NCBI RefSeq assembly: GCF_006345805.1
Contig: NC_042999.1
Coordinates: 18,042,001 to 18,106,000, forward strand
Reading direction: 5' to 3'
DNA from: Octopus sinensis
Taxonomy: Eukaryota
Length of the DNA stretch: 64,000 bases
Position numbers and translations under genes: made by a program. This document shows positions 5,225 to 51,665 of this stretch, one piece after another. Positions within the stretch are counted from its first letter, which is position 1; every line of letters begins with the position of its first letter. The notes below the pieces were generated by a model. That model did no database searches and was not told the origin of the DNA. It saw only the letters and a list, made by a program, of their open reading frames with translations.

Positions 5225-6300
5225 TTTTTCTTATTTCAACTTTGTTTCTTTTACTGAATTTGTTACCAATACTTAGGGCATAGAAAATCGCTATATACAT
5301 TCATAATTCATTAAAATATCTATATCAAATCAATATCTATAATTTATTAATAAATTGAAAAGGTTTCATTATAACATATTTACATGGAAGGATATCTTTC
5401 TCACCTCGGGAATGCTCTACTGGATATGTTTGTTTTACCAGTAAATTAATCCTTTTCACTTCTTGCCGGGATCATTCTTCAATCGTTTTCAATTCCTGTT
5501 TTTTTTTTTTTAATTTGTAATCATTCCTATTGCCTCTACAAACACTTGTATTTTGCGACGCCAGATTTCCGAGATTTCAAACAGTAAACCCGTAGAATTT
5601 CTGTGCTCGTTTAAGTTCCTTTGCTGCGGTATTATGATCACAAGGGATGATCATTTTAATCAATAAACAAATTTAATTAATTTTGTATTTTATAACAATA
5701 TCTGGTGCGTTAGATTTGATAGCTTTCTCTATATTAGGAAGAGTCCTAAGAAAACATTACATTTTCTTCCACCCACATTTACGGCCTCAGGGTGGTGCTT
5801 ATACCACTCGTAAGGGATTTTGATTTTATGGTGCTCACATATTAACCAGTTTAAATATTGATCATGTCTCTCATGCCTTGGATTATATTCCCCTTTTCGT
5901 ACAAAGATAAGTAACCCACTCTTTCATCATTTCATCATTGTAGAATCAACACTTTGAATCTACTTCTATTTACATTACATTGGTTTGGTAGTTCCTGTTT
6001 AATTTGCTCTGATCATTAGTAGCTGAACGGAAGTATTCAATCTCTTCTTTTAACCCTGAGCTTCGTAGTCACGGATGGGTGTTGTTCTTGTCCACCTCAG
6101 ATTTTTTCATACGGGCTACATTTTTATCATGCAGAAACCTATGCTCCCATCTACTAGCCAACTATTCATGCGCATTTTTTTTATTGTGATTAATATTAAT
6201 TTATTTGCAATAACATTTGACACATTTGCCTCGGGAGGTAGAACAGAATTGTCGTTCCTGAAATTAGTTTCACATTTCTTACTCTTCTTCAAGAGGGAAA
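5225..6300 (-). mobile_element. Heavily decayed R4/Dong-clade non-LTR retrotransposon, 3' part
   Basis: Minus-strand translation LHDKNVARMKKSEVDKNNTHP*LRSSGLKEEIEYFRSATNDQSKLNRNYQ resembles the R4 post-RT motif LHG..WLRSSGLKAETEG..AQDQ..TRNY. 5225-5290 resembles the 3' end of the R4 copy at 23392. Confidence 0.7.
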
Positions 6301-25156: not shown

Positions 25157-28056
25157 GTATTGAACAACACCCATATGGACGCCGAGGTGAAAATAAAAGA
25201 TTTCAGCATTGTTCGTGCGGATCGCACAGACCGAAATAAGGGAGGGACAGACATCTTTATCCATGACTCCTTTTCACTTGATGCCAAGGACATATTTTCC
25301 AATGGCTACTGTGAATCGGTATCACTATTCAGCAAGGCCAAGGACATAATCATTGTTGGTCTTTACAGGGCTCCCCAGGCACCTCTAAAGTGCTTTGAAG
25401 AGTGCCTTAGCAAAGTCAAGTCCTTCCTTCGGAAGTACCACTCCGGATACATACTAGTGATGGGTGATTTTAACCTCCCTCATGTGAACTGGCCCACAAA
25501 TACTCTGACGTTAGGCAAGTGCTCTACATCAGATAGAGCAGCAGCATAACTGCTCTTTAATCTGATGGATGAATACTTCCTGACTCAGCTAGTGCTCGAA
25601 CCAACGAGGCAGGATATAACAACCTTGGATCTGGTATTTACCAATCACTCTAGCTTCGTTCACAGTATTTCAGTTGCAAAAACTCTCCTCTCAGACCAAT
25701 TTTAATTCCCGACATATAAAAACCAAACCAGCCAATCCCACTCCATGGCACCAATTTGAAAACATAAACTTCCACAAAGCGGACTGGGGAGCAATTAGAA
25801 AAGATCTGTTTTCCATCGACTGGTCTTTTACCCTCAATTCCACCCATATTGAGACCGCGTGGCAGCACTTTGAACACATTGTCACCTATACATGCTCTAA
25901 ACACGCTCCCACGAAATCTACTAAGACAAACAGAAACCGGCTCCCTAAAAAGAAAAAAACACTCATCAGGCGCATCAAAAGACTCAACAAAAAAATCAAC
26001 TAATTAAAATATTCCAACACACAACATCCATATTCAACAACAAAGAAAAGGCTAGAGCTGGAAACACTTCATCTGCAGACCGACATGAAAACCTCCATTG
26101 AAAATCAAAGAGCTGTGGAGGAACAGTGGGTAATCAAAAACATCAAACAGAACCCAAAACTGTTCAATTCTTATGCAAATAAGCATAGAACCAGTGTCCC
26201 ACCCATTGGGCCAATGATTGATGATAACGGCATTCCCCAACACGATGCTAAAGAAATGGCAGAAATACTGCAGAAACAATAATTCTCTGTCTTTAGTGTT
26301 CCCAATGACATTGACGTAAGAGAAGCGAACGAAGATGACTCTCAACATAAAATCTCAGACATAACCTTCACTGCCACTGACATCGTAGCAGCAATAAACG
26401 AGGTCACATACTACTCTGCTGTAGGCCCTGATAGATTCCCCGCTAGTCTCCTGAAGGGAATTAGACACCAACTTGCAGTCCCTCTGACCAACCTCTGGAG
26501 AAATTCGTTAGATGCAGGTTATATACCGAAACAGTTTCTATCCCAGTCAGTCATCCCGGTTGACAGGGAAACAGGGAAACAGATCACTCGCAGTCAACTA
26601 TCGCCCAATCTCACTCACCTGCCACATCATTAAAGTGTTTGAAAGAGTGTTAAGATCAAGGATAGCTGACTTCCTGGAGACCCACAAACTCCTAAATGCA
26701 AATCAGCATGGCTTTCGCTGTGGCAGGGACTGTCTAACGCAGATCTTACCCAACATTGAAGATGTACTCAAAGCCTTGGGAACAGGTTCGAACTCTGACG
26801 TCATATATCTTGACTTCAGTAAAGCGTTCGACAGGGTAGACCATAATATCCTACTCTCAAAATTGGCAAATGTTGGAATCCGTGGAAAAGTTATACACTG
26901 GATTAAGTATTTCCTGGCGAATAGAACACAACATGTTGTAGTTGATGGAGTCCACTCAAGCCCAGCAAAAGTCACCAGCGGTGTTCCCCAGGGGACTGTC
27001 TTGGGTCTGCTACTCTTCATAATTTACATAAACGACCTTTCCAGTGTCGTACATTACTGCAAAGTGAAAATATTTGCTGATGACACTAAGCTCCAGCAAA
27101 TCGTCAATGAAGAAGCAGAACGAACTCAACTCCAGTCTGATCTATATGCTGTGAGTCGATGGGCAGACAGAAACAAAATGCAACTGAACGAGGGAAATTT
27201 TGAGCTGATGCATTTTGGAAGAAAAATCTCACTAAAACAGCCATACTCTCTTCCTTCAGGAGAACCGCTCACAGCCTCTAGCAATATCAGAGACCTGGGT
27301 GTAATTGATAATGACGATTTCATTTGGAGTGCACACATCAACAAGAAGGTCGATATAGCTCGTAGGATGAGTTCCTGGATCTTAAGAACTTTCCGGTCCT
27401 GAGAGCAAGGTGTCATCATACCACTTTTCTCCTCCTTTGTACGATGACACCTTGAATATTGCTGTCCACTGTGGTCTCCCCATACAAGACAAAACATCTC
27501 CAGGTTTAAGTCGCCCCAGAGGGCACTCACTAAACTAATTGAAGGCATGGCTGCTCTCGATTATTGGGATCGCCTTAAGGCCTTGAAACTTTACTCTCTC
27601 CAGCGTCGCCGTGAGCAGTACATCATTTGTACGATGTGGAGAATATACCGCCAACTTTGCCCAAACGACCTTAACATTAGCTTCAAGGTTCATCCAAGAC
27701 TGGGACCACAGGCCATACGTCCCCTGCCCAATTCAAGATCACAGCATACATGTACACTGCAATATAATTTCTTTTTATCAACAGGCCCTGCCCTATTTAA
27801 CATTGTCCCGAGGGAGATCAAAGAGGAAAAGGATCCCATCAACTTTAAACGGAGTCTGGATAGAATCCTTCAAAGAATACCAGATAAGCCACCCATAATT
27901 GGATACAACTCACCCAACAAGAACTCACTACTTAAATGGACCATAAACCAAACTTGACTTAAACAGGATTCGAATAATCCTATCAGGTGGTGCTATTAAG
28001 TTAGACATGGCCTGGACCAATCTTTGGTCGAAACATATCTAAGTTTATCTAAGTTT
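25157..28056 (+). mobile_element. 5'-truncated, decayed CR1-clade LINE
   Basis: APE endonuclease and RT motifs, short 3' UTR with stem-loop, (TATCTAAGTT)2 tail at 28036-28055, TA-rich flanks on both sides. Confidence 0.93.
25160..27957 (+). pseudogene. LINE ORF2 (APE endonuclease plus reverse transcriptase) disrupted by stops and frameshifts
   Basis: Motifs RADR..GG, GLYRAP, MGDFN, LDLVFT (endonuclease); NYRPISLT, QHGFR, IYLDFSKAFDRV, SGVPQGTVLG, IFADDTK, RDLGV (RT); RLKALKLYSLQRRR (C-terminus), spread over several ORF pieces. Confidence 0.93.
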
Positions 28057-39224: not shown

Positions 39225-39432
39225 CACAAGGGTCTAAAGGTAGAGGGGACAAACAATGACAGATAAATGGTTTCAGTCGATTACATCGACCGCAGTGCGT
39301 AACGAGTAATTATTAATCGCCCTCGAAAAGATGAAAGGCAAAGTCGACCTCGGCGGAATTTGAACTCAGAACGTAATACTAGACGATATACCGCTAGGCA
39401 TTTCGCCCGGCGTGTTAACGATTCTGCCAGCT
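39225..39432 (-). mobile_element. SINE family A
   Basis: Family A body and head motifs. Confidence 0.85.
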
Positions 39433-39624
39433 CTAGCTGCACTCATCTGTTTGAAATGTATTACAATTATACGATTTTACGCTGATATTTTCTTACATCT
39501 GCCAATTTTGTATATATTTATGTGTGCATTCAAAGATGGTATACTGACGGTTTCTTTCGTGTTGTTGAAAGTGAAACTCAAAATAGCAACTACAAACGAT
39601 ACTCTAGGTCATATACTGCTCGCT

Positions 39625-45724: not shown

Positions 45725-45976
45725 CCTCTGCATGGCCGCAGCTCGTGAGTTTAAAATAGATAAAATAAAACATGAAATATAAAAATTATATAGATAGATA
45801 GATAGATAGATCTATCATGGCGTCTGACGTGGCTTTAAACACCCAAACCAGACACCAAGATAGATCTAAGATATTGGTACAGGAGGTGGTCTGAATCTGG
45901 ATACGGATGAGACAACCACTACACACACACACACATACATACATATGTATATGTCTATATATATATATATATATAT

Positions 45977-46588
45977 ATAATAATTCTCTAAACGAGATAT
46001 AGACAGTAACTGCTCCATAACATAAGGGACGTTAGCCATCTGAATGTGGCTAGGGACAGGGCAGGGCGGTGGGGGTGTTACTGATGCATTTAGCCCCAGG
46101 CGATCATCAACGTCACCAGGAGGGCTGACGCCATCACGGCGTCCTCTAACCTGCAAAGGGAGATCATTCCCCGAAGAAGCGGATGCCACATACGGACCTA
46201 GTGCCCTGTCCCTAGCCACATTCAGATGGCTAACGTTATGTTATGGAGCAGTTACTGTCTATATCTCGTTTAGAGAATTATTATTGCTGTCGAACGGATT
46301 TTCTACATCAGTAAATGTATTTACTGTGAAAATCTTTATATATAGCCTGCACAGAGAGTCGTTCGTCGAGGCGCGGTGCCTGTCATTCGTTGATAATAGG
46401 CAAACACCTTGAAACGTATGTGGCATCCGCTTCTTCGGGGAATGATCTCCCTTTGCAGGCTAGAGGACGCCTTGATGGCGTCAGCCCTCCTGGTGACGTT
46501 GATGATCGCCTGGGGCTAAATGCATCAGTAACACCCCCACCGCCCTGCCCTGTCCCTAGCCACATTCAGATGGCTAACGTCCCTTATG

Positions 46589-46592
<4 letters not shown>
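45977..46592. mobile_element. Retrozyme-like element: ~345-nt structured unit as a partial tandem (+, 46202-46592) and an inverted partial copy (-, 45977-46194)
   Basis: Direct repeat 46202-46245 / 46546-46592 (period 344). 46017-46194 is the reverse complement of 46415-46592 with 2 mismatches seen. 45977-46065 is the reverse complement of 46202-46284. (TA)n lies on both sides. Confidence 0.75.
46343..46462 (+). ncRNA. Minimal type I hammerhead ribozyme, U3-A8 core variant, at the tip of a long stem I
   Basis: Core TTGATAA 46390-46396, stem II AGG/CCT, GAAA 46411-46414, palindromic stem III ACGT, predicted cleavage after GTA at 46418; stem I closed by TAGCCTGCA/TGCAGGCTA. Confidence 0.65.
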
Positions 46593-46628
<36 letters not shown>

Positions 46629-48479: not shown

Positions 48480-50115
48480 ATTTCAAGTTTTGTCACTGAG
48501 CCAGTGATTTCAGGGGAGTGGGTAAACCGATTACGTCCACCAGTTTGTCTACTTGAAATGATGCTAAGCAAATTCGATCTCCGCGCTCTTTGAACTTAGA
48601 ACGTGAAGACGAACGTGATGTGGCTGAGCATTTTACCTGATGTTCTAACGTTTCTGCCAGCTTGTTGCCTTCTAGGTTTTTAATATATCTCTTTCTTTAT
48701 TACCCACAAGGGGCTAAACATAGAGAGGGAAAAAGGACAGACATGAGTATTAAGTCGATTACATCGACCCCATTCTGCGACTAGTACTTTTTAAATTGAC
48801 CCCGAATGGATGAAAGGCAAAGTCGACCTGGACGGAACTCGAAATCAGAACGTGCAGACGACGTGACGCGGCATTTTGCAATGTATTACTAACGTCTCTG
48901 CCACCTTGTCGCCTTCTACGTTTTTAATATAATGTCGAAGGTGGCGTGGTGGCATAAATATTACAGCACCGAAAAAGATGCTCGTCGACATTTCATCATA
49001 AAGTAAGTGCCAGTTCAAGACTGAGGTAGATGTAATTGACTTACACATCCCGCAAAATTGAAAATTATACCCAAATACTATCAAGAATTGCGACATGGCA
49101 GAATCTTTACAGAGTTATTTCTGAGATAAAATACCGCAGGGGCCGATTTGACTTCCATCCTATCGGGGTCAATAAAATAATCATCAGCTGAGCAGCGAGG
49201 TGTGATCGATGTAATCAACTTACATCGTCTCCCGAACCGGCTGGTCTTGTGCCAACATTTGAAATCATTTTTAGAATACTATCAAGGTGGTTAACTTGCA
49301 GAATTGTTACCGTCCCGGCCAAAACACTTAGCAACATTGCTTCTCCTCTTACGTTTTGATTTCAAATGCCATCGGTGTCGCTTCTGCTTTCCTGATTTGC
49401 GATTGGTCTAATAAGTACCAGCTGAGCAGTGGGATCGATGTAGTCGATATGCCTTTTCCTCAAATTTGCTGGCGTTGTGTGAAAATATGAAGTCAATACT
49501 AAAGTACTATCAACGTTAACATTAATATATTTTTGAAGATTATATCAAACGAAATTTTATGTATTTAGTTTTCTTTAATTATCCCCTAGGGATAATAAAC
49601 CTTATCAGAATTCGGTCTCTCTTACTTGAACTATTGGTTACTCCCGTCTCACGACCGAACATGCTTGATGACGCAAATAAATATATCAATTTTGCCAACG
49701 AAATACCTGAATAACGCTTCCGTTCCTACTTCCTGATACCAAAGCAAAATGCAGTGTGGTGACAATAACGTTAGAGCATCGAGGCAAATGGGTTTCCTTA
49801 ATGTTTATGTAGCTGAACTTCAAATCCTAGTGCCGACAACATTGGCATTCATCCGTAGTCGATAAAATAAAGTGCAATATAAGGCAGCGAGCTGGCAGAA
49901 CCGTTAGCATGCCGGGCGAAATGCGTAGCCGTATTTCGTCTGCCGTTACGTTCTGAGTTCAAATTCCGCTGAGGTCGACTTTTCCTTTCATCTTTTCGGG
50001 GTCGATTAATTAAGTACCAGTTATGCACTGCGGTCGATGTAATCGACTAAATCCGTTTGTCTGTGCTTGTTTTTCCCCCTCTATGTTTAGCCCCTTGTGG
50101 GTAGTAAAGAAACAG
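48480..50115. mobile_element. Dense cluster of about seven family A-related SINE copies of different ages, both orientations
   Basis: Minus copies ~48480-48670 and 48690-48915; diverged plus copies 48940-49875; well-conserved full plus copy 49882-50115. Confidence 0.8.
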
Positions 50116-50600: not shown

Positions 50601-51406
50601 AAATCTCAGGAAACAACACTATCGGTATAATTCAGAGCACTGTCTATTAACTATCTTCGTTTCAATGAAGTTTTGCAGACATCGATTTTATTTTTATTTC
50701 GTTGCACCCTTTCGTATACCAACCTCATATCAACCTCTTCCTTTGTCGTTCAGCTAATTTTAGCACAAAGAATTCTATTGATTTTAATTAAAAATTAATA
50801 TATTTATTGGGGATTTAAGCATTTAAATATTTTATCAGAAAATGAAACTTAATTTCACACCAATAATTGAGTCGGCTCTAAAGATTCTATAATGTATGAA
50901 AACGTTCAGCATGATTACTAAATATGTTAGTTCTTTTAAAGATAAAGAAAGAAATAAACTATATAAAACTATGTGAAATCTATTTTTTGTTCCTCCTTAG
51001 CTGTCTTGAAGTATAATGATTTTAATATCAACATATGTCAAATTTAGCAACACTTTCTACATTGTAGTTTTCTTTTTCTGTCTGTAATCTGATGGGTCAT
51101 ATTTTCTTTTTCTTATTTTTCTATTTTCTTAAAGAAGATTATCACCGACGAAACAGTAATTAATAAAAAGCAATTACTATCAGGACTTTCAGGAATTCCG
51201 GATAAATATGACCTACATGGTAGTATGAAAGATATTTTGGTTAACAACGAAGACCATGGCAACGACGGGAACAGAAATAACAAAATCCACATCAATTAGG
51301 TAGATGCCTATTTTAAATTGTGACCCCACAGCAAAATGTCGATGGAGGGTCAATTCAATTATACCGACCCCAGTCCTTAAATATTGTTATTTTATAGGGC
51401 ATAACG

Positions 51407-51665
51407 AGGCGAGCTGGCAGATTAGTTAGCACACCAGGCGAAATGCTTGGCTCATCGCTTTAATGATAATAATACTTGGCTTTGTGCTGGATATTTGAAG
51501 GGAATTGTGTGACTCGATTGCATAGACCTTAGCGCTCATTTCGTACTAATTTTATCAACCTCGAGAGGAGGAAAGGAAAATTCGACCTCGGCAGGATTAG
51601 AACCTGGAATGTAAAAGTTTGACGGAATGCCACAAAACATTTTGTCCGACGCATAGCACTAACAA
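51407..51665. mobile_element. Family A SINE head (+) abutting a diverged minus-strand family A body
   Basis: GGCGAGCTGGCAGATTAGTTAGCACACCAGGCGAAATGCTT followed by TTTATCAACCTCGAGAGGAGGAAAGG..CGACCTCGGCAGGATT. Confidence 0.65.

What the first reader, a model, noticed from the sequence alone, without database searches (positions are those of the whole stretch)
46343..46462. U3-A8 minimal hammerhead whose predicted cut site nearly coincides with the end of the inverted copy
Seen: ..TGTCATTCG-TTGATAA-tAGGcaaacaCCTt-GAAA-CG-TA-TGTGGCA.. The usual CUGANGA is UUGAUAA, a compensatory swap of the C3-G8 tertiary pair to U3-A8. Stem III is only the palindrome ACGT. Stem I continues through GCGG/CCGC, TCGAGG/CTTCGG, TCGTTC/GAATGA, GAGA/TCTC and a perfect 9-bp TAGCCTGCA/TGCAGGCTA. 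The inverted copy stops at the position equivalent to 46415, 4 nt from the predicted cut after 46418. Established: minimal hammerheads with palindromic stem III cleave better as dimers, and 3-8 pair swaps can keep activity. Inference: the reverse-transcribed RNA had a ribozyme-made 5' end. Caveat: the first stem II position is a U-U mismatch. A standard CTGANGA motif search would miss this site.
Basis: partly seen in the sequence, partly recalled or inferred. Interest (0 to 1): 0.75.

Follow-up and report, generated by a model that had tools for sequence, protein, structure and literature searches.

The report
Broken copy of a hammerhead retrozyme
This is one damaged copy of a 355-letter jumping repeat whose intact sister copies carry a predicted self-cutting RNA motif; this copy has lost the eight letters that hold the predicted cut site, so it likely cannot cut, and the repeat is an ordinary member of a known class that is likely pasted into the genome by Penelope-type enzymes.

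Summary
The stretch belongs to a ~355-nt non-coding repeat family whose hammerhead reads UUGAUAA-stem II-GAAA-CCUAGGUC/CGUAUG. This copy lacks those 8 nt (1 match genome-wide; 472 intact-core matches), so the real stem III (palindrome ACCUAGGU) and GUC site are gone. The ACGU/GUA reading needs a stem I of probability ~1e-5. The inverted arm does not stop at 46415: it runs 7 nt further, across the true cut site. Arm 5' ends do not pile up at the cut (5 seen, 4.8 expected). The family itself has a well-covarying type I hammerhead and Penelope-type insertion anatomy: a non-LTR retrozyme. U3-A8 and the U-U mismatch have published precedent, and this scan already reported sister families in this genome. 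One lead remains: 4 of 6 larger deletions in the ribozyme, this one included, end exactly at the cut site, possibly scars of cleavage. No activity or expression was shown.

The parts
45977..46201 (-). Inverted arm of the insertion: monomer positions 350->356->218 (numbered from the true cut). Holds the last 7 nt before the cut site and the 3' half of stem I but no catalytic core; ends at the long (tail-bearing) 3' end
   Evidence: 225 nt, 99.6% to an intact monomer; class of 3' end
46202..46592 (+). Forward arm: monomer 132->356->178, about 1.1 units, ends at the short 3' end; 4-nt deletion after 46235 and 8-nt deletion after 46414
46343..46462 (+). Long imperfect hairpin that carries the hammerhead at its tip (extension of stem I)
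   Evidence: z -5.63; for compensatory changes in the inner part across subfamilies
46384..46389 (+). 5' strand of stem I (one substitution against the family at 46387, another next to it at 46383)
46390..46396 (+). Core U3 U4 G5 A6 U7 A8 A9 (U3-A8 variant)
46397..46410 (+). Stem II: U-U at the base, 3 bp, 6-nt loop
46411..46414 (+). Core G12 A13 A14 and A15.1
46414..46415 (+). Site of the 8-nt deletion that removes stem III and the GUC triplet; 46415 is the first base after the family's predicted cut
46415..46420 (+).
45956..45981 (.). Left (TA)n flank, target microsatellite
46590..46625 (.). Right (TA)n flank, target microsatellite

Best explanation
The stretch is a deletion-damaged, predicted inactive copy of the hammerhead of a ~355-nt non-coding repeat family, a non-LTR retrozyme that was likely inserted by the enzyme of a Penelope-like element (PLE). 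Shown: family membership, the 8-nt loss, two back-to-back arms in (TA)n, two fixed 3' ends 44 nt apart, scattered 5' ends, covariation of stems I, II, III and the 3-8 pair. Inferred: intact tandem copies are transcribed; their hammerheads cut after GUC as dimers through the 8-nt palindrome; the monomer is ligated to a circle or stays multimeric; a PLE reverse transcriptase-endonuclease nicks (TA)n, starts copying inside the RNA at monomer position ~178 on one target strand and ~222 on the other, reads through the cut junction, and the two truncated cDNAs are joined 5' to 5'. This copy lost stem III and the cut triplet during or after that event.
For: Family: 93 matches from 40 of 1,728 candidates scored; 472 and 1,760 matches to two disjoint intact-core patterns, reversed controls 0; cut-to-cut monomers of 347-358 nt. 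Deletion allele unique; covariance model places the loss on stem III. Covariation on 27 representatives: 92.8% of cells paired, 8 of 15 pairs with changes on both sides, score 0.441 against 0.251 shuffled and at most 0.187 slid; central palindrome pair CG 9, GC 5, UG 5, UA 4, AU 3, unpaired 1. Palindrome duplex -8.9 to -11.4 kcal/mol for the five commonest full-length forms against -1.7 for ACGU. Anatomy: 55 arm ends at 172-179, 48 at 217-226, 15 elsewhere of 118 arm records; 31 of 40 two-armed loci classifiable and all 31 have one short and one long end; 90 of 103 such ends flanked by TA-rich sequence; 63 of 121 arms longer than one monomer. Literature: inverted 5'-truncated copy and tail at one end in PLEs (PMC8557442); two internal RT start sites define the tail (PMC11167929); retrozymes of 350-390 bp in mussel and dimer cleavage with a U-U stem II base in axolotl (PMC7229834); U3-A8 in PLE hammerheads (PMC4209133).
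Against: No cleavage or expression was shown. No autonomous PLE sharing sequence with the monomer was found in 15 long PLE regions and 30 shorter loci. Rfam reports no hammerhead for the window or for four loci with intact copies, even at E<=1. The tail is 44 nt against 30-40 in the papers; G+C of three monomers is 45-49% against <45% given for retrozymes. Loci were chosen for holding the hammerhead, which biases arm lengths upward. In Xenopus only 1 of 9 predicted retrozyme dimers cleaved in vitro (bioRxiv 10.64898/2026.07.22.740005), so intact-looking copies need not be active. The window allele rests on this assembly alone.
Confidence: 0.85

Rival explanations
1. One reading: the window allele is itself an active minimal hammerhead (ACGU stem III, GUA site) and the inverted arm marks a ribozyme-made 5' end.
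For: GAAAC-GUA matches the minimal-core layout described in PMC4209133; the arm-to-arm match does break at 46415.
Against: Allele is single-copy; required stem I has p about 1e-5 and CGUA is held in the family stem I; ACGU duplex only -1.7 kcal/mol; no second core on either strand at this locus; inverted arm continues 7 nt past the true cut; no excess of arm 5' ends at the cut.
Confidence: 0.03
2. The 8-nt deletion is a scar of ribozyme cleavage: the RNA was cut after GUC, its 3' end was trimmed, and the ends were ligated or bridged by a template jump of the reverse transcriptase before insertion. This adds to the best explanation and concerns only how the deletion arose.
For: Of 36 shortened copies in the first family, 3 have deletions of 5 nt or more and all 3 end at the cut (8, 7 and 28 nt; the last without microhomology). 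Of 59 in the sister families, 3 such deletions: 1 ends at the cut, 1 spans it, 1 lies elsewhere. Leaving out the window, 3 of 5 end at the cut, rough p 0.003. Only 4 deletions of 4 nt or more elsewhere in 44 kb of aligned arms.
Against: Post hoc, tiny numbers, hand-set probabilities. Three of the four have 1-2 nt of microhomology around a palindrome, which DNA slippage or repair would also produce. Single-base losses at the junction (10 of 59) are no commoner than at other homopolymers (counted by eye). Arm 5' ends show no excess at the cut. HHR mutants did not change insertion in the Anolis PLE in vitro (PMC11167929).
Confidence: 0.45
3. The deletion is ordinary DNA-level decay (slippage across the palindrome) or an assembly error inside a 178-225 bp inverted repeat, unrelated to cleavage.
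For: 1-nt microhomology at the junction; the same arm also has a 4-nt deletion and three nearby substitutions; many copies in this assembly show single-base homopolymer losses.
Against: Larger deletions favour the cut site; a 28-nt deletion ends there with no microhomology.
Confidence: 0.5
4. The arms are truncated pseudo-LTRs of an autonomous PLE rather than a separate non-autonomous retrozyme.
For: PLE anatomy is identical; PLE ORF fragments lie near some copies.
Against: Arms longer than one unit continue into another monomer, not into an ORF; tandem arrays at 347-358 nt spacing; the four PLE ORF families examined end in unrelated sequence.
Confidence: 0.05

Closest known systems
Metazoan non-LTR retrozymes (coral, mussel, axolotl; PMC7229834; bioRxiv 10.64898/2026.07.22.740005)
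   Same: Non-coding 350-nt tandem units, one type I hammerhead per unit, palindromic weak helix III, U-U at the base of helix II as in axolotl HHR_Amex2, PLEs in the same genome.
   Different: Mostly dispersed two-armed insertions of 1-2 units with two fixed 3' ends; U3-A8, U3-G8 and U4C cores and U-U, C-A or G-C at 10.1-11.1 in sister subfamilies; G+C 45-49%; circular RNA not tested; this copy lacks helix III.
Minimal hammerheads in pLTRs of Penelope-like elements (PMC4209133)
   Same: U3-A8 core variant (about 1,300 hits in Schistosoma mansoni), palindromic 15.2-16.2 region, dimer model, pairs of motifs on opposite strands 100-700 bp apart.
   Different: Here helix I is 6 bp and helix II 3-4 bp, there is no extra base between 9 and 10.1 in the G-C subfamilies, and no RT-endonuclease ORF is attached.
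Penelope-like element insertions (PMC8557442; Anolis Poseidon, PMC11167929)
   Same: Inverted 5'-truncated copy, tail at one end, AT-rich or (TA)n targets, two internal start sites, read-through of the ribozyme site.
   Different: No protein; tail 44 nt; the partner element was not identified.

Membership tests
Type I hammerhead (window allele) | Core N3 U4 G5 A6 N7 N8 A9 with paired 3-8, and G12 A13 A14 | tested here: met
   UUGAUAA and GAAA present
Type I hammerhead (window allele) | Helix III and an NUH triplet 5' of the 3' strand of helix I | tested here: not met
   8 nt deleted; alternative register p about 1e-5
Type I hammerhead (intact family copies) | Invariant core and covarying helices I, II, III | tested here: met
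   G5, A6, A9, G12-A14, GUC invariant in 27 of 27; covariation
Type I hammerhead (intact family copies) | Match to an Rfam hammerhead model | tested here: not met
   no hammerhead family among hits
Type I hammerhead (intact family copies) | Self-cleavage | not testable with these tools
   needs in vitro assay
Non-LTR retrozyme | Tandem units of about 170-400 nt, one type I hammerhead each | tested here: met
   cut-to-cut monomers 347-358 nt; arrays of up to 5 listed units. The window copy itself is 1.1 unit plus an inverted arm
Non-LTR retrozyme | No protein coding | tested here: met
   only incidental stop-to-stop frames cross the element, none RT-like by eye; no ORF of 130 aa or more over it in the window
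Non-LTR retrozyme | G+C below 45% | tested here: inconclusive
   45-49% in three monomers
Non-LTR retrozyme | Expression as linear and circular monomer RNA | not testable with these tools
   only assembled contigs of runs guessed to be RNA were available
Minimal PLE hammerhead | Long helix II (7-8 bp), short helix I, extra base after A9, location in a pLTR | tested here: not met
   helix II 3-4 bp, helix I 6 bp, no ORF
PLE-type insertion | Inverted 5'-truncated copy at the 5' end | tested here: met
   window and 40 two-armed loci
PLE-type insertion | Tail present at one end (two start sites) | tested here: met
   ends at ~178 and ~222; 31 of 31 classifiable pairs have one of each
PLE-type insertion | AT-rich or microsatellite target | tested here: met
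   90 of 103
Autonomous PLE | RT plus GIY-YIG ORF within the unit, or sequence shared with a PLE pLTR | tested here: not met
   none in unit; no shared pLTR in the PLE regions examined; search not exhaustive

The most novel reading that the evidence does not exclude
Deletions that end exactly at the GUC site, this one included, are genomic fossils of in vivo self-cleavage by a U3-A8, U-U hammerhead followed by 3' trimming and rejoining, and the two-armed insertions record a PLE enzyme copying a circular retrozyme RNA from two fixed start sites, one per target strand. The family would then offer a natural mutational series (C3-G8, U3-G8, U3-A8, U4C; G-C, U-U, C-A at 10.1-11.1; at least eight palindromes) with a genomic read-out of cleavage.
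Probability: 0.35. Interest if true: 0.55.

Novelty: new member of a known kind. Interest (0 to 1): 0.27.

Why it matters
The site itself is a dead copy and the core variant is published, so little hangs on it. The family is a usable test case for two open points: whether animal retrozymes are mobilised by PLE enzymes from a circular template, and whether their hammerheads cut in vivo. The strict pairing of one short and one long 3' end per two-armed insertion and the deletions ending at the cut are genomic traces that can be counted and tested. It is also a caution for motif scans: CUGANGA searches and Rfam miss these ribozymes, and single copies mislead without the family alignment.

Tried and rejected
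Rfam at gathering threshold (window) and at E<=1 (five loci): no hammerhead, only microsatellite-driven miRNA hits. Ribozyme-made 5' ends of arms: hand-scored from the listings (29 breakpoints of 69 matches; 2 internal deletions, 1 duplicate and 37 small variants dropped; 69 of 86; 17 indel variants and duplicates dropped): 3 and 2 at the cut, 5 against 4.8 expected; 5' ends of 118 arm records are spread over the whole monomer. Autonomous partner: a PLE RT next to L024/L030 proved to be a neighbour with unrelated ends; four PLE ORF families checked by BLAST, pattern and covariance model gave no shared sequence; Pfam did not recognise the two ORF pieces tried. RNA: no RNA holder listed on record; contigs of four runs guessed to be RNA cover the monomer but cannot show ends, strand or level. 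Independent check of the window allele: no contig of four runs bridged the junction, so it is neither confirmed nor contradicted. RNAalifold on the longer alignment recovered helices I and II but not the outermost 9-bp stem, which aligns poorly between families. A paper on dimer cleavage by small PLE hammerheads that I recalled is not held and is not used. No host gene was evident in the window (ORF list only).

Full report
Observation. An inverted repeat of 178 nt joins 46017-46194 to 46415-46592. Rfam finds nothing in the window at gathering thresholds.

The family. The stretch is one copy of a dispersed repeat in the 2.7-Gb genome G000: 93 matches from 40 of 1,728 candidates scored. In 28 of the other 29 fetched loci (25 of 26 distinct places) GAAA is followed by 8 more nt, CCTAGGTC or a variant, before CGTATG; one locus lacks 7 of them. 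The window's junction occurs once in the genome, while an intact-core pattern with U-U at the base of stem II gives 472 matches and one with other bases there gives 1,760, reversed controls 0 (only the first 100 of each were listed). Cut-to-cut monomers measure 347-358 nt. The family hammerhead is therefore stem I CAUACG, core UUGAUAA, stem II, GAAA, palindrome ACCUAGGU, cut after GUC, stem I CGUAUG.

Evidence that the family motif is a selected hammerhead. In 27 representatives chosen by me from the fetched subfamilies, G5, A6, A9, G12-A14, A15.1-C15.2 and GUC are invariant. 92.8% of cells pair; 8 of 15 pairs change on both sides; score 0.441 against 0.251 for shuffles and at most 0.187 for slid structures (related sequences inflate such scores, and the structure was mine). 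The 3-8 pair is C-G 13, U-A 8, U-G 6. The two central bases of the palindrome, which would be a 2-nt loop in a monomer, are self-complementary in 26 of 27 (CG, GC, UG, UA, AU), as the dimer model requires. The 10.1-11.1 position is G-C in 7 and unpaired (U-U or C-A) in 20.

This copy. Against an intact monomer the insertion is a minus arm 45977-46201 and a plus arm 46202-46592, joined 5' to 5', with both 3' ends in (TA)n. The plus arm lacks 8 nt after 46414 and 4 nt after 46235. The deletion removes stem III and GUC; a covariance model built without the window puts the loss there (45.2 bits against about 75 for intact copies). The minus arm carries 7 of the 8 missing bases, so it crosses the true cut; the arm-to-arm match stops at 46415 because of the deletion.

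Insertion anatomy. Among 118 arm records (some duplicated by overlapping loci, loci chosen for holding the ribozyme), 3' ends fall at monomer 172-179 (55) or 217-226 (48), 15 elsewhere; 5' ends are scattered. Of 40 two-armed loci, 31 have both ends classifiable and all 31, the window among them, pair one short with one long end; 90 of 103 classified ends have TA-rich flanks. 63 of 121 arms exceed one monomer and 4 exceed two. This matches PLE insertions: inverted 5'-truncated copy and a tail at one end (PMC8557442, passages) and two internal RT start sites that define the tail (PMC11167929, parts 1-2 of 4). No partner was found among four PLE ORF families examined.

Did the ribozyme make the 5' ends? 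No excess: 3 of 29 breakpoints within a 24-nt span at the cut in the first family and 2 of 69 within 19 nt in the sister families, 5 against 4.8 expected (scored by hand, dropped rows listed under Tried and rejected). Internal deletions are different: all 3 deletions of 5 nt or more among 36 shortened copies end at the cut, and 1 of 3 among 59 in the sister families, with 1 more spanning it. Without the window, 3 of 5, rough p 0.003. This is post hoc, and microhomology around a palindrome is a fair rival, so I rate a cleavage scar at about even odds. The allele was not confirmed outside the assembly.

Mechanism. Shown: structure, covariation, copy anatomy, deletion. Inferred: transcription of tandem copies, dimer cleavage after GUC, circularisation, and copying by a PLE enzyme from two start sites on the two target strands with read-through of the junction. 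The window copy is a dead end of that cycle; a plus-strand transcript through the locus would also fold back on the inverted arm (inference).

Comparison with what is known. The family works like, and fits the testable features of, metazoan non-LTR retrozymes (PMC7229834: passages and sections 14, 15, 17; bioRxiv 10.64898/2026.07.22.740005: parts 1-3 of 5, supplements closed). U3-A8 is reported in natural hammerheads (PMC3088659, passages) and in Schistosoma PLEs (PMC4209133, parts 1-2 of 4); U-U at the base of helix II in axolotl. Searches listed no paper on this family or on deletions at retrozyme cut sites (listings only; supplements not seen may name such repeats). Earlier notes of this scan describe sister families in this genome with the same two-armed anatomy and call it an octopus genome (organism not tested here), and one unreviewed note reports indels at a cut site in another genome; I reached my reading before opening them and count them as leads only.

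Verdict. Real motif, misread copy, known class: new member of a known kind, interest 0.27.

Noticed in passing
L207 about 5615-5665 and L209 (3' UTR of a young Poseidon-like PLE family with a 775-777 aa ORF): Hammerhead-like motif with a U4C core, U-U at the base of stem II and a 6-nt palindromic stem III, read by eye; no BLAST or model match to the retrozyme. A candidate to test as partner.
   Followed up: partly
L145-L174, L115-L144 (G000): Many sister subfamilies with C3-G8, U3-G8, U3-A8 or U4C cores and G-C, U-U or C-A at the base of stem II; shared 3' segment and the same kind of paired ends; the C3-G8/G-C family forms longer tandem arrays.
   Followed up: partly
L087-L110 (G000, about a dozen copies): A subfamily with a 7-nt, one-base-shorter stem III palindrome (duplex -5.5 kcal/mol) that still multiplied, suggesting that strong cleavage is not needed for spread.
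   Followed up: no
L082 minus strand about 1995-2230: A more distant retrozyme-like element with a CUGAGGA core, 68% over 154 nt to L160.
   Followed up: no
L077, L078, L079, L083: Two PLE families with ORFs over 1,000 aa (RT plus GIY-YIG by eye); one shows the same inverted upstream arm in (TA)n.
   Followed up: partly
window 25157-27957 (+): Frameshifted LINE-like endonuclease and reverse transcriptase frames, judged by eye from translations.
   Followed up: no
window 39252-39433, 48540-48931, 49878-50071, 51401-51612: Copies of a dispersed SINE-like repeat in both orientations.
   Followed up: no
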